Below are positions 16,133-30,174 of a DNA stretch of 64,000 bases, piece after piece. The notes beneath the pieces are model-generated. The model saw only the letters and a list, made by a program, of their open reading frames with translations. It was not told the origin of the DNA and made no database searches. The stretch lies in the sequence record NC_052659.1; one strand, 5' to 3'. A program made the translations under genes and the position numbers. The number at the start of each line of letters is the position of its first letter. The stretch's first letter is position 1. This stretch comes from Escherichia phage nieznany.

Positions 16133-17771
16133 ATTATGCTCCTTTGTAGATTATGTTGGTGCGTTCACACTCTGCCACCAGCAAGCCAAGCTTTGTAAAA
16201 CTTCATTAGACGTAAGCTACTCAACGGAACATTTTTACTCTCTTGCATGATAATCTCCTCTCATCGTTAGCCATCTTTCATGGCAATCATCAATCACCAA
16301 CATCATACGATCAATCTTAGGGAATTACAATCGAATTATCATAGGGGATTCCTATCAATTATCCCCTATATACCGATTATTTTTGACACCCCACTCTTGT
16401 ATAAAAAGTAACCCAAAATATCTACGGGGAGAGATTATTTCGGGACACCCTGTTTCATGGCAATCATGGCAAGAATATCTAATAGAATCAATATCATATG
16501 GCAAAAATCATGGCGCATACGTAAGAAGTGCTTAACGCGAATTTTCGGGCCGTCAGGTCCACGCAGCGACAATTCCCAAATATCATGCGAATGAGAATAA
16601 TTATCATTCGTATTCAATGACTTATGCAAAGCTCATGCCAACGTAGCGACAAGGTGGGCCACTTGATTATAAATCACACAAACACTTATTTATCAATGGT
16701 TTGGCAACCTCATCATATGACGGAACAATGTCAACTAATCCCGCTCATGACAAGCAGACTATTATTTATATGAGAATGATTATTATTTAAACGTTTATTA
16801 ATATAAAAACTAGAATAAATCAAGATTATTCTGATTTTATTTACGTTTAAGAGAAGGTGCTCAACATATCGCGTAGCGATAGTATTCGCCCCCCAAAAGA
16901 TTAGCCTTTATTTTCTTGTATGTTTATACACTATGTGCACACTATGCAACCTGTCGCTATTCGCTCATGTTGCTACGTGCAATTATTCATCTTGCTAATG
17001 ATGATCACACTGAACGATAGTGATAACTCTTGTAATTACCACAATGATTATTGTTATTGCGCTAATGTTATGATCTTGGTAATTACATATAATGCTAATA
17101 ATAAGCCAGCGCAATAAGTGTAAGCGTCATTACGCTTGCAATTATTGCAAGCTACGCAGTAACAAGAAATAACCGTCACCGATGGTTATGATTGTTGGGG
17201 TGTAGTTGGCTTATTATTAGCTCGCTATGTGTCCGGCATAGCGTGCTAATGATGACTCTGTGAATGATTAGTTTTGTAATGATTTCATTCAGGCACTATT
17301 TTGCTAATAGTTATTATTTTAATGGTTTCGTTTGTTATTGTTCGTTAGTTGGTTGTTTTGTCATGTTATCGTTATTTTGCTTAGTATTCATCATGGTTTG
17401 ATTGTTTGTCGTTATCAATCATCTTGCTATTATTCCTTTGATTATGATTAGTTTGCTTATTGTTTTATGTTGTTTGTTGGTTAGTTGTTGCGAACTATTA
17501 TCAACATTATAGTTATGCACTTATATTGCATAGATAAACATGGATAGATGATAATGGTTATCATTGCACCAGAAAGGAGGTAAAAGGGTGTTTTTGATGG
17601 TTTGTTGTTGGTTGTTGATCGATTTTAACCGCTTTAAATGGCTCTCTAACAGCCTGTAACCCTGGGATGTATGGTTATTCGTTTGCTGGTTGATTAGCTC
17701 GATACCACGATTTATTCAGTTTTGTTCTGTGTCGGTTTTTCATAGGCGAAAGCTATCAACATTGTTCGGGC
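16133..17771. other. 1.6-kb gene-free region with repeated motifs and strong GT skew (17220-17700); candidate origin or non-coding locus
   Basis: No credible ORF; repeated CATGGCAATCAT and GTAGCGAC-type motifs; G+T-rich plus strand. Confidence 0.5.
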
Positions 17772-25587: not shown

Positions 25588-25616
25588 TTGACAAGCCCAG
25601 GGATCGGGCTTATACT
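25588..25616 (+). promoter_or_regulatory. sigma70-like promoter TTGACA-N17-TATACT
   Basis: -35 25588-25593, -10 25611-25616; followed by about 110-nt GC-rich non-coding segment. Confidence 0.45.
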
Positions 25617-25974
25617 GTTTTACATACAGAAGAGGAAGCGCCACCCCCACGGCGTAAAGGCGGGGCTAACATACCAGGGGGCACTGGTTGGAAGGTTGAT
25701 CGCCGGTAGGCTGGGCGCTATATATTTGTAAAGAAATGTAAAGATAAAATAATCGCTTGCTTTCCTAGCTGGATCTGTTATTCTTATTACATGGCGAGGG
25801 GACACGGGAGCGCGAGACAAACACCGCCCCTGCGCGTCATTCTCTAAATGAGATTGATTCTTATTTAATAAGGTAAATGACAATCATTCTCATTTATAAA
25901 CTTAAATGCGAATCATTATCATTTGCATTTCCATATGAGAACTCTTCTCATTTTCACCTGCATAAAAATTTTTG

Positions 25975-26155
25975 TAAACTTTAAATTTTGCTTTTGTACT
26001 TTCATTTTTGTAAAAGCAAAAAAACTTTAAATACTGTGGGCGCGCAAAATTTTTAAAATTTTCCTTGACTTTTGAGTTTTGTTTTGTATCTAACATTTTA
26101 AGATAATTTTCCTAAACTTTAAATTTTGGTTTTCAACTTTCACTTTTGTAAATTC
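25975..26155. repeat. two direct repeats of about 43 bp (25975-26016 and 26113-26155) in AT-rich intergenic DNA
   Basis: TAAACTTTAAATTTTG(C/G)TTTT..ACTTTCA.TTTTGTAAA repeated; AAACTTTAAA motif four times. Confidence 0.45.
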
Positions 26156-26302
26156 TTAAAAAGTTTAAATAATTTGAGGGATTTTTGAGATAAAAGATAG
26201 TGGGAATTTGATATAACCTTTAATCTTATTGGTAAACCTTCAGGAACCCACTCAGATCGAATCCTAGTGATGCAAACTGAAAAAGACAAGGGTTTGTATA
26301 GG

Positions 26303-26340
26303 ACAAAATAACAGGCTCTCTACGGTGCTGTAGGAGCCTT
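26303..26340 (-). terminator. terminator candidate downstream of NADAR gene
   Basis: Imperfect hairpin GGCTCTCTAC..GTAGGAGCC with T-rich flank on minus strand. Confidence 0.4.
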
Positions 26341-26394
26341 ATTTCTGGGCTACAAAGTGACACCTTTGTTCTAAAAATGAAAAAAGTTAAAATA

Positions 26395-26937
26395 TCACAA
26401 ATATCGTCTTTGCGGTATTTTGTCTGGGAAAAGTATTTCGATCAGTTTATTATGATATTTGCCTAAAAGATTCTGCCCTTTCCAGGTAGCAGGGTTTAGC
26501 ACCCCTGGTTCATACATTCCCATTCCAATACCGTAAACCTTATCGTAAGGACTTGCTTCAACAAACGTTTTGTATTGGTAAAGGTGTAAGTCTGCATACA
26601 AATCTGGATTCTGTACATATTTCAAGCATAAGCCTCGCATAACAATACGCTCACGGTTCTCTTCCCACATATCATTATTAAAACCAGATACCGCTCGACC
26701 CATACGTTTGTAGTATGCTTGTTTCCTCTCGTTGTCACGTATAGTTGAGTGATCAAGGATAGCTGCTGCAATCGCATGATCCTTGAACAGCAAAGCCTTA
26801 CGCCACATCATATATTGCTCAACACAACAGAAAGTCTCATTGTAACCTGGTTCAGTTTCTGTAAAGGGTGCAATATACCAATTACTAAACACATCTTTAT
26901 GTGAAAAGAAGAATACATATTCATCAGTTATTCTCAT
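26395..26937 (-). CDS. NADAR-domain (YbiA/DUF1768-like) protein
   Basis: N-terminal FFFSHKDVFSNWY..F and EQYMMWRKALLF match NADAR conserved blocks. Confidence 0.6.
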   Translation of the reverse strand: MRITDEYVFFFSHKDVFSNWYIAPFTETEPGYNETFCCVEQYMMWRKALLFKDHAIAAAILDHSTIRDNERKQAYYKRMGRAVSGFNNDMWEENRERIVMRGLCLKYVQNPDLYADLHLYQYKTFVEASPYDKVYGIGMGMYEPGVLNPATWKGQNLLGKYHNKLIEILFPDKIPQRRYL

Positions 26938-27149
26938 TTTTTCATGCCTTCTAAAACTTTAGCTTGCCCGTCTTGAAAAGCTTTCATCAGAACTATCTTA
27001 AGATTGACTTCCAAACGTTCTTCATCCTCTCTATAACAATCCAACACTGCTTTAAGTTCATCATAGTGGTTCAGAATAGGTTTAAAGATTTCATGATCTG
27101 CTAAACGTGCCATAGTTTCTCCTTTGTTAGTCCATCCACCAGTAGCCAT
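26934..27149 (-). CDS. hypothetical protein
   Basis: 71-aa ORF. Confidence 0.45.
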   Translation of the reverse strand: MATGGWTNKGETMARLADHEIFKPILNHYDELKAVLDCYREDEERLEVNLKIVLMKAFQDGQAKVLEGMKK

Positions 27150-27492
27150 AAACTGCGTCTGCGTCGATGAGTTTGTGTTTGTTGTTCCGCATGTAGTCTA
27201 AGATAAGTAGACGTTTATTGTATCTGGAGAGATTATGACCCTCTTTTCCGCCATAGTCAAAATATTTTGCAAGATCTTTACACTCAAACAAAATCAGTTC
27301 GGGAGTTTCTTCACACTGGTCTGTCTGGTACACTTGACGAATGATCATGTATACATCGTCGTCTTCCGCTAAATGCTCTACTGGTCCACATCCAGCAGGA
27401 ACAAATTCATAGTCCCATCTGATCAGATGTTTCTCTACTGCTTCAAAGAAATCCATCCTTTCATTGCGCATAATTTGAACGTCAACTAACAT
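27127..27492 (-). CDS. hypothetical protein
   Basis: 121-aa ORF. Confidence 0.45.
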   Translation of the reverse strand: MLVDVQIMRNERMDFFEAVEKHLIRWDYEFVPAGCGPVEHLAEDDDVYMIIRQVYQTDQCEETPELILFECKDLAKYFDYGGKEGHNLSRYNKRLLILDYMRNNKHKLIDADAVYGYWWMD

Positions 27493-28946
27493 GTTTCCTC
27501 CTCTCTCATTATTCCACCTGCTTGGTTGATAGCACTTAAGACGATAGCCAAATCCTCGCGCAGGAAGGTTTCACTATGACCATCTTTCATGTGCAAGCGT
27601 TCTACACAGCCAATAGACGGTAGAATCTGATCAGTCTTAGACTTTAGCTTACTCTCTAACGCCCTGCAAGCTTGGTAGGACGGCAGATCGAACAATGCTA
27701 TACGGCGCATAGAGTAATTGTTGTTTGCATTCTGCCCTTTGATCCTGATATCACTGTCCTTTGCAATCCCCAACTTGTAAGCTCCCGTGTCTTCTCCGTA
27801 CTCATCAAGAATAATATTGATGTAAAATTCTTGCATATTTCTGTTCTTACAGCCTGGACAACCTTTCCCATTGAGATAATCGGTAGGTGTGATCGTTTGC
27901 TCTCCATGCTCCCTACATAGATATTTAAACTTGCTGTTATTGCTTACCTTATCAATGAATCCTATAAATTGATCCCCTCGTTCCTGGCAAGCTTTGGTCA
28001 TACGGTAGGCCCATTGTTCAGGAGTGTAATGATAATATTTAGAACAACGGCAAGGAAGGCCACCCCTTTTCAAATGACTCATCTTCATCTCAAATTTATT
28101 ATCGCATAAGCCTTCTTTACAATAATCATCCTCTGCACATATAGGACATTCTACAATCCAGTAAACCTGACGACCTAATCTATCTACTCTATCGCTACGA
28201 TAATATTTACGCTCTACATTATCAGGACAAGCTTTTATAAAATCTTCAACATGTTGTTTATCCTCCATAGTATTCCTTTGTTTCGTCATTTCTCTTTGAC
28301 AACTGTAGCATCCAGTCCCTTGTTTAGCACTGTTTACAGTGGTAGTGCACCATTGACCATGAACCTTACACTCACAAATCAACTTAGTGCGGGAACCGTT
28401 CCACGGTTCCACATAGCCTCTAACAATCCAGGGTTTTTCTTTATAAGCTTCTTCTACTTCTTCTTTATGTTTCTCCCATGCAATCGATGTTCTTTCTCTG
28501 TTTGCTTCTCCCATACACTTCCTGCATCCACTCCCGTTTTTCGCAGAAGATATAGAAGTAGACCTCCACTCCCCATGTAAAGCACAACAACAAACCAGTT
28601 TAGTATTCCATCCTTTCCATTCTCCGTGCCATCCTGTAACAGTCCAAAACTTACCTGCCTGATTGTAAGTGGTTTGCACTTCTTCTTTATATTGCTCCCA
28701 GGTTTTTGATTTGTTTATAGATACTGCTTTACTTATAATCTCCCTACCGCATTCTGGACAACCCCTCCCTAGTTTAGCGGTATTTATGCTTGTTGTTTTC
28801 CATTCTCCATGCAGAGCACAGATGCATCTAAGTTTAGTTTTATTGCCGTTCCACGGCTCAATATAATCTACAACAGTCCAAGACTTACCTTGATAAGCTT
28901 GTTTTATATCTGTTTTATATTGTTCCCAAGTGACTATTTTTGGCAC
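27486..28946 (-). CDS. multi-repeat zinc-ribbon protein with C-terminal T5orf172 / GIY-YIG-like domain
   Basis: Three to four tandem repeats of about 60 aa (WEQYK..KL.C.C..HGEW.TT...AK.G.GC..C); C-terminal FYINIILDEYG..AYKLGIAKD..R resembles T5orf172 motif. Confidence 0.5.
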   Translation of the reverse strand: MPKIVTWEQYKTDIKQAYQGKSWTVVDYIEPWNGNKTKLRCICALHGEWKTTSINTAKLGRGCPECGREIISKAVSINKSKTWEQYKEEVQTTYNQAGKFWTVTGWHGEWKGWNTKLVCCCALHGEWRSTSISSAKNGSGCRKCMGEANRERTSIAWEKHKEEVEEAYKEKPWIVRGYVEPWNGSRTKLICECKVHGQWCTTTVNSAKQGTGCYSCQREMTKQRNTMEDKQHVEDFIKACPDNVERKYYRSDRVDRLGRQVYWIVECPICAEDDYCKEGLCDNKFEMKMSHLKRGGLPCRCSKYYHYTPEQWAYRMTKACQERGDQFIGFIDKVSNNSKFKYLCREHGEQTITPTDYLNGKGCPGCKNRNMQEFYINIILDEYGEDTGAYKLGIAKDSDIRIKGQNANNNYSMRRIALFDLPSYQACRALESKLKSKTDQILPSIGCVERLHMKDGHSETFLREDLAIVLSAINQAGGIMREEETC

Positions 28947-29007
28947 ACCTCCCCCTTTAGCTATTAGTGCGAGCCTACAACAAAAGAATAACTAAAATCC
29001 CTCCATA

Positions 29008-29032
29008 ACAAATGCCCCTTGCGGGGCATCTT
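29008..29032 (-). terminator. terminator candidate
   Basis: ATGCCCCTTGCGGGGCAT hairpin with T-rich flanks. Confidence 0.45.
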
Positions 29033-29034
29033 TA

Positions 29035-30174
29035 TTAGAACACGCTACCAAGTGTAGTGGAACGTTGTGTTACAGGCTCCAGCACCACTCGCAAAGTGTT
29101 TCCTGGTGTAGTGCTCATAACCAGAATCTTACCACCTTCAATCAGATCACAAGTTAGACCATCAGCCGTTGCACATAGATCAATATGTGGATCACCATCT
29201 TCATCCAGGATAACATAACTGTTGGTTTCCATTGCTTCCACTTCATCATCTTTCAAACTTTGTAGATAGATGTTCAGGGAACAAGCACCCGACAAAAACT
29301 TAGTAGGGGTGAAGTCGTGCCAGTTATTGATCCAATTCACCTTCAAGGTTTTGCCATTAGCTACGATAGAAGCCACATTCCATTTAGCATCGTTCCCTAA
29401 AGAAATACCCATCATTTCAAGACATTCTTTAAAAGTCATTTTTGGATAGAAATTCAATTCTTCTACAATGCCTTGAATAACATCGAAAGACAACTCTGTG
29501 CTAACATCCCATAAACGTTGGAAGTTATCTACGTGCTTTTTATTTACCAAGTTCTTATCCAAGTAATCTAACATAGTTTCACTAGACAGTTTATCGTAAT
29601 TGAAACTGTAGTAGATACGACTAGGACGGTTTACAAAATATTCCGAGATATAACCACTATTTTTAGTGAGGATGTAAAGTTTATTCCCACTTCCTGTTCC
29701 ATCCAACAAGGTCAACAGTGCTTCCTGATCTTCTTTCTTAGCGTACACTTTATCAAATTCGTCAAATAAAACAACAGCACGATCTGTAATTTTACTCATA
29801 AATTCTAAGAAGCCAGCATCTGTGTAAGGCTGTGTAACCAAAATGGTTGGAATACCTAAACCTTCTGTGGACATTAGAGACATGCTAATCAGTTTAGCTA
29901 ACATCGTCTTACCACTGCCTTTTGTCCCTGTCAGTAACACCCCAGTATTTTTACCTTCTTTACTACGACGAGCAAATGTTTTAATAACATGTGCGGCGCG
30001 ATTTTTAGTTTCCCCATAAAGAGTGTTCGGAAGAGAGAAACTTTCACCACGCACTAAAGAGTAGTTACCGTGCGGATCGCAGTTGACAACCCAAACTCCA
30101 GCAGGAAGTTTATTAGCTTCAACGCCATATTCCTTATTTACAACAGCTACATCTCCAAAAATAGTGTATTTCAT
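29035..30174 (-). CDS. AAA+ family ATPase
   Basis: Walker A GTKGSGKT and Walker B VVLFDEFD. Confidence 0.6.
   Translation of the reverse strand: MKYTIFGDVAVVNKEYGVEANKLPAGVWVVNCDPHGNYSLVRGESFSLPNTLYGETKNRAAHVIKTFARRSKEGKNTGVLLTGTKGSGKTMLAKLISMSLMSTEGLGIPTILVTQPYTDAGFLEFMSKITDRAVVLFDEFDKVYAKKEDQEALLTLLDGTGSGNKLYILTKNSGYISEYFVNRPSRIYYSFNYDKLSSETMLDYLDKNLVNKKHVDNFQRLWDVSTELSFDVIQGIVEELNFYPKMTFKECLEMMGISLGNDAKWNVASIVANGKTLKVNWINNWHDFTPTKFLSGACSLNIYLQSLKDDEVEAMETNSYVILDEDGDPHIDLCATADGLTCDLIEGGKILVMSTTPGNTLRVVLEPVTQRSTTLGSVF

What the first reader, a model, noticed from the sequence alone, without database searches (positions are those of the whole stretch)
27486..28946. 486-aa protein with tandem Cys/His-rich repeats fused to a T5orf172-like domain
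The N-terminal two-thirds consists of three to four repeats of about 60 aa, each with a W(E/Q)xYK..TKL.C.C..HGEW.TT...AK.G.GC..C signature (putative zinc ribbons). The C-terminus has a FYINII..YKLGIAKD..R block resembling the T5orf172 / GIY-YIG-like domain. This architecture suggests a sequence-specific nucleic-acid-binding nuclease or regulator and was not recognised as a known protein.
Basis: partly seen in the sequence, partly recalled or inferred. Interest (0 to 1): 0.5.

Follow-up and report, generated by a model that had tools for sequence, protein, structure and literature searches.

The report
Zinc-finger-array homing endonuclease in a coliphage
The gene encodes a phage "selfish" DNA-cutting enzyme, five zinc-finger DNA-reading modules joined to a T5orf172/GIY-YIG-type nuclease, sitting in a mobile cassette that some related phages lack; this type of protein has already been described, so it is a new member of a known kind.

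Summary
The ORF is real: window 27486-28946, minus strand, 486 aa. The window is a phAPEC8-like coliphage (Phapecoctavirus), 99.8% identical to ESCO13.

**Zinc modules.** Two more divergent modules follow. All five match Pfam's CapR homology domain (99.3 bits in total).

**C-terminal domain.** The last ~115 aa misses Pfam's T5orf172 cut-off on its own (13.7 bits; cut-off 20). Other evidence places it there:
- The family consensus (21.3 bits) and the syntenic phi92 gp222 (20.2 bits) pass the cut-off.
- A family HMM aligns E431 with the catalytic E180 of the characterised T5orf172 nuclease Odn.

**Locus.** The gene lies in a ~1.5-kb cassette between the terminator of an AAA ATPase gene and the ribosome-binding site of the next gene.
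- phiWec188 has a clean empty site and no copy in the 147.9 of 149.8 kb scanned.
- Other relatives carry unalignable alleles with 1-2 N-terminal repeats at the same site.

**Verdict.** It is a free-standing CapR-array/T5orf172 homing endonuclease, an architecture published in 2021-2023. RefSeq already calls it "endonuclease". It is a new member of a known kind, of low to moderate interest. Nuclease activity and homing are inferred, not shown.

The parts
27486..28946 (-). ORF of 486 aa (GTG start, TAG stop): CapR zinc-finger array plus T5orf172-like nuclease
28749..28928 (-). Zn module R1 (aa 7-66); putative ligands C43, H46, C63, C66 (C-x2-H...C-x2-C)
   Evidence: Pfam CapR 26.5 bits on aa 1-78; motif
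28515..28700 (-). Zn module R2 (aa 83-144); putative ligands C121, H124, C141, C144. It is closest (65-73%) to the single repeat of other alleles
   Evidence: Pfam CapR 22.3 bits
28299..28478 (-). Zn module R3 (aa 157-216); putative ligands C193, H196, C213, C216. This is the repeat shared by all family members
   Evidence: Pfam CapR 22.9 bits; alignment A1; modelled as alpha-beta-beta-beta-alpha at pLDDT >90
28041..28178 (-). Zn module 4 (aa 257-302) with the canonical CapR CxxC...CxC motif (C267, C270, C299, C301, all invariant)
   Evidence: Pfam CapR 41.7 bits; invariants; motif as in PMC8096241
27846..28016 (-). Zn module 5 (aa 311-367); C344, H347, C363, C366 invariant. It is a diverged copy of the R1-R3 type
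   Evidence: Pfam CapR 38.3 bits; repeat HMM E 2.9e-4; same secondary-structure pattern as R3
27498..27833 (-). T5orf172-like GIY-YIG nuclease domain (aa 372-483), with invariant Y375, K391, G393, R401, E431 and D455-G-x-(S/T)-E459-T460
28947..29010 (-). 64-nt leader of the cassette with the Shine-Dalgarno sequence (AAGGGGGAGG) directly before the GTG start. No sigma-70-like promoter was found
27502..29010 (.). Extent of the inserted cassette relative to the empty site of phage phiWec188 (about 1.5 kb replacing about 10 nt)
29012..29029 (.). Palindromic terminator hairpin after the AAA ATPase gene. This is the upstream boundary of the cassette and is shared with the empty site
27490..27503 (-). 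RBS (AGGAGGAA) and ATG of the downstream 121-aa gene, embedded in the last codons of the nuclease ORF. This is the downstream boundary and is conserved in all alleles
29035..30174 (-). Flanking AAA ATPase gene. The endonuclease sits immediately downstream of it in Phapecoctavirus and in phi92
27127..27492 (-). Flanking 121-aa gene of unknown function

Best explanation
The gene encodes a modular, site-specific DNA endonuclease of the CapR/T5orf172 homing-endonuclease class, and it is carried on a free-standing mobile cassette.

**Inferred mechanism.**
1. Five tandem zinc-finger modules each hold one Zn. Four use C-x2-H...C-x2-C ligands and one uses C-x2-C...C-x-C. Like beads on a string, they read an extended DNA target.
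2. The C-terminal T5orf172 domain, a branch of the GIY-YIG superfamily, cuts nearby DNA. It uses Y375, K391, R401 and the metal-binding E431.
3. In a mixed infection with a relative that lacks this cassette, the enzyme cuts near the ATPase/121-aa-gene junction. Recombinational repair then copies the cassette in.

**Shown here.** The domain architecture, the fold, the conserved catalytic set, the insertion polymorphism and the exact cassette borders.

**Inferred.** Zn binding, DNA binding, cleavage, the target site and homing itself.
For: **Architecture.**
- Pfam CapR scores 99.3 bits in 5 stretches, and every module matches on its own.
- PHROG 681 'endonuclease' matches end to end.

**Nuclease domain.**
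- T5orf172 is the top Pfam hit for 13 of 14 family members.
- The consensus of 175 family domains passes the cut-off at 21.3 bits against 20.
- The syntenic homolog phi92 gp222 passes at 20.2 bits.
- The AF2 model has pLDDT 90.5 and a beta-beta-alpha-beta-alpha layout.
- BFVD neighbours are named homing endonuclease, GIY-YIG, T5 Orf172 and MUG113.
- The family HMM aligns to Odn residues 127-190 with E 1.3e-4 for that single comparison. It places K391, G393 and R401 on Odn K138, G140 and R148, and E431 on Odn E180.
- E180A kills Odn cleavage in vitro and in vivo (PMC8263062).
- Y375, K391, G393, R401 and E431 are invariant in 64 diverse relatives.

**Mobility.**
- phiWec188 has a clean empty site, with terminator, 9-nt spacer, RBS and ATG in sequence.
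- No nuclease-domain or repeat copy was found in the 147.9 kb of phiWec188 scanned.
- About 45 relatives have 93-99% identical flanks but unalignable endonuclease alleles of 332-400 aa at the same site.
- Repeat number varies from 1 to 3, and R2 is nearer to other alleles' repeats than to its own neighbours.
- KB57, in another subfamily, carries a family member in a different context.

The architecture and behaviour match the published T5orf172 homing endonuclease genes.
Against: - The protein's own T5orf172 score is below Pfam's threshold.
- hhalign of the 14-sequence profile against the single Odn sequence found nothing.
- No cleavage, target site or homing event has been demonstrated for this protein or any close relative.
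- The gene is single-copy and present at the same position, after the ATPase gene, in nearly all Stephanstirmvirinae examined, including phi92. That pattern also fits a retained, useful gene.
- No promoter of its own was found.
Confidence: 0.72

Rival explanations
1. The gene is a domesticated nuclease that benefits the phage. Examples would be exclusion of co-infecting relatives (marker exclusion) or destruction of a satellite or host element, as Odn does in ICP1. It would use the same DNA-binding and cutting chemistry but would be kept by selection on the phage rather than by homing.
For: - The gene is nearly fixed, single-copy and syntenic downstream of the AAA ATPase gene in two genera.
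- Its catalytic residues are intact.
- Stephanstirmvirinae phages Mt1B1_P17 and Muut are reported to carry Odn-like RepA_N-T5orf172 nucleases proposed to target E. coli satellites (PMC10448857).
Against: - The gene is dispensable, since phiWec188 lacks it.
- It has cassette-like borders and allele replacement typical of homing endonuclease genes.
- No E. coli genome holds related DNA that would point to a satellite partner.
- All alleles at this locus have CapR arrays, not RepA_N.
Confidence: 0.2
2. The protein is a DNA-binding regulator with an inactive nuclease domain, comparable to PLE CapR or to I-TevI acting as an autorepressor.
For: - CapR itself is a repressor derived from such zinc-finger modules (PMC8096241).
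- An array of palindromic repeats lies about 1.5 kb downstream.
Against: - CapR has no nuclease domain.
- Here the nuclease domain is the best-conserved part of the protein, and Y, K, R and E are invariant across hundreds of cluster representatives.
- The five modules are mutually divergent, so they are not suited to binding identical repeats.
Confidence: 0.04
3. The gene is a decaying remnant of a homing endonuclease gene with no function.
For: Homing endonuclease genes commonly degenerate after fixation (general knowledge).
Against: - The ORF is full length and 98-99.8% conserved in 21 records.
- All Zn ligands and catalytic residues are intact.
- Both structure models are very confident.
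Confidence: 0.03
4. The protein is an HNH endonuclease (suggested by PHROG 559), or the repeats are an assembly artefact.
For: phrog_559 'HNH endonuclease' matches at 6.2e-25.
Against: - That match covers only aa 8-248. It is reproduced by repeat 1 alone, whereas the C-terminal domain hits only phrog_681.
- There is no HNH Pfam hit.
- The repeats are only about 60% identical in DNA and recur in 21 records.
Confidence: 0.01

Closest known systems
T5orf172 homing endonucleases with CapR-type zinc-finger repeats (Vibrio phage ICP1 gp174, gp165, gp121, gp53, gp130; phage Helene; Netter 2021 PMC8096241; Barth 2023 PMC10448857)
   Same: The architecture and orientation are the same: N-terminal repeated CapR/DUF723/DUF4379 zinc fingers ('beads on a string') and a C-terminal T5orf172 domain. 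These are also free-standing genes next to conserved genes, with variable repeat number, module shuffling, and positions at the borders of exchanged segments.
   Different: This belongs to a different phage lineage (Stephanstirmvirinae coliphages). tblastn at E <= 1e-3 listed no Vibrio phage among the named groups. Its nuclease subfamily scores below Pfam's T5orf172 cut-off, so a Pfam screen at E <= 0.001, as used in that survey, would miss it. None of six names of these phages occurs in the survey's text or supplements.
Odn (ICP1 gp88), the biochemically characterised T5orf172 nuclease (PMC8263062)
   Same: The nuclease-domain motifs are colinear. Y, K-x-G, R and E align, and our E431 aligns with the catalytic E180. 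The C-terminal E-T-F motif is shared by eye.
   Different: Odn uses a RepA_N DNA-binding domain and acts against a satellite. Similarity to our domain is weak, at 8.1 bits.
PLE CapR, capsid-operon repressor (PMC8096241)
   Same: It shares the CapR zinc-finger module, whose four Cys are needed for DNA binding. Module 4 here has the same CxxC...CxC motif.
   Different: CapR has no nuclease domain and a single module, and it is encoded by a satellite.
Free-standing GIY-YIG homing endonucleases of T4 (Seg proteins, I-TevI)
   Different: In those enzymes the nuclease is N-terminal and matches Pfam GIY-YIG, and DNA binding uses NUMOD or helix-turn-helix modules. Here the order is reversed, 'YIG' is replaced by K-x-G, and the His/Tyr of helix 1 is replaced by Q405.
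phi92 gp222 'endonuclease' and the other alleles at this locus (phAPEC8 gp013, tuntematon gp053, phiWec179)
   Same: They occupy the same position after the AAA ATPase gene and have the same architecture.
   Different: They carry 1-2 N-terminal repeats instead of 3. Their nuclease domains are 33-39% identical to ours, except phiWec179-type at 89%. Some bring a different terminator hairpin.
SLX1 structure-specific endonuclease (PDB 6seh, 7wme, 7cq2)
   Different: Sequence identity is 10-13%. SLX1 is eukaryotic, structure-specific and partnered with SLX4. This is a fold relationship only.

Membership tests
T5orf172 domain (Pfam PF10544, GIY-YIG superfamily) | The protein's own score reaches Pfam's gathering threshold (20 bits) | tested here: not met
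   The full-length protein gives no hit at E <= 10. The isolated domain scores 13.7 bits, E 0.09, over profile positions 3-86 of 101.
T5orf172 domain (Pfam PF10544, GIY-YIG superfamily) | Family-level homology: close relatives or the family consensus reach the threshold | tested here: met
   T5orf172 is the top hit for 13 of 14 members. The consensus of 175 domains scores 21.3 bits. The syntenic phi92 gp222 scores 20.2 bits. Of 64 representatives, 10 match T5orf172 and 6 match MUG113 at E <= 0.01.
T5orf172 domain (Pfam PF10544, GIY-YIG superfamily) | GIY-YIG alpha/beta fold (beta1-beta2-alpha1-beta3-alpha2) | tested here: met
T5orf172 domain (Pfam PF10544, GIY-YIG superfamily) | Catalytic Arg in helix 1 and Glu in helix 2, plus Tyr in strand 1, are conserved | tested here: met
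   Y375, R401 and E431 are invariant. The HMM alignment puts R401 on Odn R148 and E431 on Odn E180. E180A is catalytically dead.
T5orf172 domain (Pfam PF10544, GIY-YIG superfamily) | Endonuclease activity | not testable with these tools
   This needs purified protein.
CapR homology domain (Pfam PF21817) | Score at or above the gathering threshold (24.2 bits) | tested here: met
   The whole protein scores 99.3 bits in 5 stretches. The modules alone score 26.5, 22.3, 22.9, 41.7 and 38.3 bits.
CapR homology domain (Pfam PF21817) | Two conserved Cys pairs, CxxC ... CxC, 24-26 residues apart (Netter 2021) | tested here: inconclusive
   Module 4 has C267-x2-C270 ... C299-x-C301, with 28 residues between the pairs. 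The other four modules have C-x2-H ... C-x2-C with 15-16 residues between. Ligand geometry could not be checked because model coordinates are not returned.
CapR homology domain (Pfam PF21817) | Zn-dependent sequence-specific DNA binding | not testable with these tools
   This has been shown only for PLE CapR.
Free-standing homing endonuclease gene | Nuclease ORF inserted between conserved genes, with presence/absence polymorphism and a clean empty site | tested here: met
   The empty site is in phiWec188. No copy was found in the 147.9 of 149.8 kb scanned. Borders are sharp at 27501/27502 and 29010/29011.
Free-standing homing endonuclease gene | Family members in different genomic contexts or lineages (evidence of past mobility) | tested here: met
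   The nuclease domain occurs in 151 phage records across several subfamilies and jumbo phages. KB57 has a different context. Within Stephanstirmvirinae the position is constant.
Free-standing homing endonuclease gene | Cleavage of the allele lacking the gene, and super-Mendelian inheritance in crosses | not testable with these tools
   This requires cleavage assays and phage crosses.
HNH endonuclease (PHROG 559 label) | HNH / beta-beta-alpha-metal nuclease motif | tested here: not met
   There is no HNH Pfam hit. The phrog_559 match is confined to the zinc-finger repeats.
Classical GIY-YIG homing endonucleases (Pfam PF01541; I-TevI/Seg) | Match to the GIY-YIG model, with the nuclease domain at the N-terminus | tested here: not met

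The most novel reading that the evidence does not exclude
The hypervariable CapR-array/T5orf172 gene that sits after the AAA ATPase gene in almost all Stephanstirmvirinae may be more than a selfish passenger. It could be an allele-specific weapon between co-infecting relatives or against satellites. Under this reading, the number and identity of the ~72-aa zinc modules (1, 2 or 3 N-terminal repeats, exchanged between alleles) act as a readable, recombinable code that sets target length and specificity. That would make the locus a natural system for programmable DNA recognition.
Probability: 0.15. Interest if true: 0.55.

Novelty: new member of a known kind. Interest (0 to 1): 0.25.

Why it matters
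On its own the finding is modest. It confirms that a published class of phage homing endonucleases, a zinc-finger array plus T5orf172, extends to phAPEC8/phi92-like coliphages.

Two points are useful:
- **Under-counting.** This nuclease subfamily has 782 cluster representatives at 50% identity. It falls just under Pfam's T5orf172 threshold, so Pfam-based censuses under-count these genes, and databases label them only 'CapR homology domain' or 'hypothetical'.
- **A tractable test system.** The locus offers, in easily grown E. coli phages, a natural series: an empty site, 1-, 2- and 3-repeat alleles, and two terminator types. No homing cross or target-site mapping for a CapR-array T5orf172 gene appeared in the papers read here. 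This series would allow direct tests of homing and of how module number sets target recognition.

Tried and rejected
- **Word-index homolog search with the C-terminal domain alone.** Nothing found.
- **NCBIfam.** Nothing meaningful.
- **PDB sequence searches.** Only noise, both with the protein and with the C-terminal profile.
- **afdb50 fold library.** Not available.
- **Foldseek of the 334-aa multi-domain core model against the PDB.** Only noise, TM <= 0.15, so no solved structure resembles the whole arrangement.
- **hhalign of the 14-sequence profile against the single Odn sequence.** Nothing, probability 0.25%. It was superseded by the 175-sequence HMM.
- **Second copy in the window.** None found by tblastn or by HMM on the six-frame translation.
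- **Related DNA in 5,426 E. coli genomes.** None, so there is no sign of a satellite or prophage partner.
- **HNH reading.** Rejected.
- **Assembly-artefact reading.** Rejected.
- **Recent in-situ triplication of the repeat.** Rejected, because R2 is closer to other alleles' repeats.
- **The gene's own promoter.** No sigma-70-like site upstream.
- **Side look at the GC-rich segment 25622-25850.** No special fold, z 0.06. There are no Rfam or tRNA hits in the window.
Full report
**Context.** The window is a phAPEC8-like myovirus of E. coli (genus Phapecoctavirus, subfamily Stephanstirmvirinae). The region 27000-29500 is 99.8% identical to phages ESCO13, Schickermooser, AV125 and others. The ORF named in the finding is at exactly 27486-28946 on the minus strand: 486 aa, GTG start, TAG stop. 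RefSeq annotates the identical gene in ESCO13 as 'endonuclease' (HOR21_gp171). UniProt/BFVD holds it as 'CapR homology domain-containing protein'.

**The observation.**
- A shifted self-match gives 41.7% identity over 180 aa, E 3.6e-36.
- The repeats are 43-50% identical in protein and 59-63% in DNA.
- The allele recurs at 98-99.8% identity in 21 records.

They are therefore old, genuine repeats, not an assembly artefact. The repeat period is 74-76 aa rather than 60.

Two further, more divergent cysteine-rich modules follow, at aa ~257-302 and ~311-367. Pfam's CapR homology domain (PF21817) matches the protein at 99.3 bits in five stretches. Each module also matches on its own: 26.5, 22.3, 22.9, 41.7 and 38.3 bits against a cut-off of 24.2.

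The conserved putative ligands differ between modules.
- Module 4 has C-x2-C...C-x-C. This is the motif whose mutation abolishes DNA binding in PLE CapR (PMC8096241).

A confident model of aa 153-486 (pLDDT 94.9) gives R3 and module 5 the same alpha-beta-beta-beta-alpha layout, and module 4 a variant of it.

**The C-terminal domain.**
- The full-length protein gives no T5orf172 or GIY-YIG hit at E <= 10.
- The isolated domain scores 13.7 bits against a cut-off of 20.

Five independent lines nevertheless place it in the T5orf172 branch of the GIY-YIG superfamily.
1. T5orf172 is the top Pfam hit for 13 of 14 family members, and MUG113 also matches 5 of them.
2. An exhaustive HMM search found 782 cluster representatives of this domain. 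The consensus of 175 of them scores 21.3 bits, above the cut-off. The syntenic homolog phi92 gp222 scores 20.2 bits.
4. Foldseek neighbours in BFVD include proteins named homing endonuclease, GIY-YIG, T5 Orf172 and MUG113.
5. The 175-sequence HMM aligns to residues 127-190 of ICP1 Odn (gp88) with E 1.3e-4 for that single comparison. It places K391, G393 and R401 on Odn K138, G140 and R148, and E431 on Odn E180. Odn cuts DNA in vitro, and E180A abolishes this (PMC8263062).

Y375, K391, G393, R401, E431 and the D-G-x-(S/T)-E-T motif are invariant in 64 diverse relatives. The nuclease therefore looks intact.

As reported for Odn, the His/Tyr usually found in helix 1 of GIY-YIG enzymes is missing. 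Here Q405 occupies that position. That equivalence is my inference from spacing.

The PHROG 'HNH endonuclease' match is caused by the zinc-finger repeats only.

**The locus.** The gene lies between an AAA ATPase gene (29035-30174) and a 121-aa gene (27127-27492).

Phage phiWec188 has an empty site. After the ATPase stop codon come the same terminator hairpin, a 9-nt spacer, the RBS GGAGGAAAATT and the ATG of the 121-aa gene. An HMM scan of 147.9 of its 149.8 kb finds neither the nuclease domain nor the repeat. The gene is therefore dispensable.

Relative to that site, the cassette in the window spans about 27502-29010.
- Its 5' part is a 64-nt leader with a Shine-Dalgarno sequence.
- Its last codons (GAG GAG GAA ACA TGT TAG) supply the RBS of the next gene and overlap its ATG.

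In about 45 other Phapecoctavirus records the flanks are 93-99% identical, but the endonuclease is a different allele whose DNA does not align.
- phAPEC8 has a 394-aa allele, Ro121c4YLVW 400 aa and tuntematon 332 aa.
- These bring their own, different terminator hairpin.
- phiWec179-type phages carry a 337-aa, one-repeat version of our allele.

Family members have 1, 2 or 3 N-terminal repeats, and one metagenomic protein is a tandem fusion of two whole units. R2 is 65-73% identical to the single repeat of other alleles, but only about 50% to R1 and R3. The array is thus a mosaic, not a recent triplication.

In phi92, a sister genus, the homolog also follows the ATPase gene. In KB57, a member of the Vequintavirinae, the context differs. 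No sigma-70-like promoter precedes the gene.

**Interpretation.** The anatomy matches the T5orf172 homing endonuclease genes described in Vibrio phage ICP1 and other phages. Those have repeated CapR/DUF723/DUF4379 zinc fingers 'like beads on a string' and a C-terminal T5orf172 domain. They also show variable repeat number and module swapping, and they sit at the borders of exchanged segments (PMC8096241, PMC10448857).

I therefore conclude, with confidence about 0.7, that this is an active, free-standing homing endonuclease. Its zinc-finger array reads a long target near the ATPase/121-aa-gene junction, and its T5orf172 domain cuts it, driving the cassette into genomes that lack it. Domain identity is well supported. 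Zn binding, DNA binding, cleavage, the target and homing are all inferred.

The main rival, at about 0.2, is that the nuclease is retained because it helps the phage, through exclusion of relatives or action against a satellite.
- In its favour is the near-fixation of the gene at one position in two genera.
- Also in its favour, Odn-like RepA_N-T5orf172 nucleases have been reported in the related phages Mt1B1_P17 and Muut.
- Against it, the alleles at this locus are all CapR-type.
- Also against it, no E. coli genome carries related DNA.

**Novelty.** This is a new member of a known kind. The survey that defined the class names none of six phages of this group that I searched for, in its text or supplements. 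Its Pfam screen at E <= 0.001 would miss this protein. No paper in the library discusses this gene beyond genome descriptions. The practical value is a ready-made allele series, including an empty site, in easily handled coliphages.

Noticed in passing
window 25845-26176: In a gene-poor stretch (about 25590-26395) there are four copies of a 19-nt palindromic unit (ATGAnAATCATTCTCATTT) at exact 29-nt spacing: 25848, 25877, 25906 and 25935. They are followed by direct repeats of 29-72 nt at 25967, 26057 and 26105. The arrangement looks like an operator or iteron array. The array region is matched at 70-83% even in T5-like Salmonella phages.
   Followed up: partly
window 6483, 16592-17563, 25878-25921, 37504: Fur-box-like palindromes are enriched. 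The pattern TGATAATNATTATCA (consensus quoted from memory) with up to 2 mismatches gives 8 matches against 0.72 expected, and no shuffle out of 100 reaches 8. Four of them cluster at 16.6-17.6 kb, and two are units of the 29-nt array. Possible iron/Fur-linked regulation or a Fur decoy; not tested.
   Followed up: partly
window 25588-25850: A near-consensus sigma-70 promoter (TTGACA-17-TATACT, + strand, 25588-25616) is followed by an unusually GC-rich segment of about 230 nt with no annotated gene. Its fold is no better than shuffles, z 0.06. There is no Rfam or tRNA hit.
   Followed up: partly
window 26395-26937 (minus strand): The 180-aa protein is a NADAR domain protein (Pfam 3.4e-35). Several GenBank and RefSeq records label it 'GTP cyclohydrolase II', which is probably a misannotation. 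NADAR enzymes remove ADP-ribose from DNA bases (from memory), so an anti-defence role is conceivable.
   Followed up: no
window 29035-30174 compared with L005 and L006: The AAA ATPase gene next to the cassette exists in two allele classes. It is 97-99% identical in most relatives but only 74% in phiWec179 and phiWec188, while the other flank stays at 83-90%. This could relate to the endonuclease's target or to immunity to it.
   Followed up: no
protein P0002 (metagenomic, 669 aa): This protein is a tandem fusion of two complete units, each with zinc fingers and a nuclease domain, so it has two T5orf172-like domains in one chain.
   Followed up: no
L007 (PV659873.1, phage WPEC1): The record looks scrambled. 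The query matches 9 separate places. The match to the window ends in the middle of the endonuclease gene, at window 28088, and an 82-nt piece lies inverted 3.6 kb away. This is likely a misassembly.
   Followed up: no
records listed: Records named Campylobacter phage B15, Acinetobacter phage vB_AbaM_ABPW7, Klebsiella phage ZCKP1 and Pseudomonas phage PsgM04F are 90-98% identical to these coliphages over this region. Their host labels deserve caution.
   Followed up: no
window 1-64000: GC skew flips at about 4 kb and about 32 kb, matching a block of minus-strand genes (4-32 kb) between plus-strand blocks.
   Followed up: no
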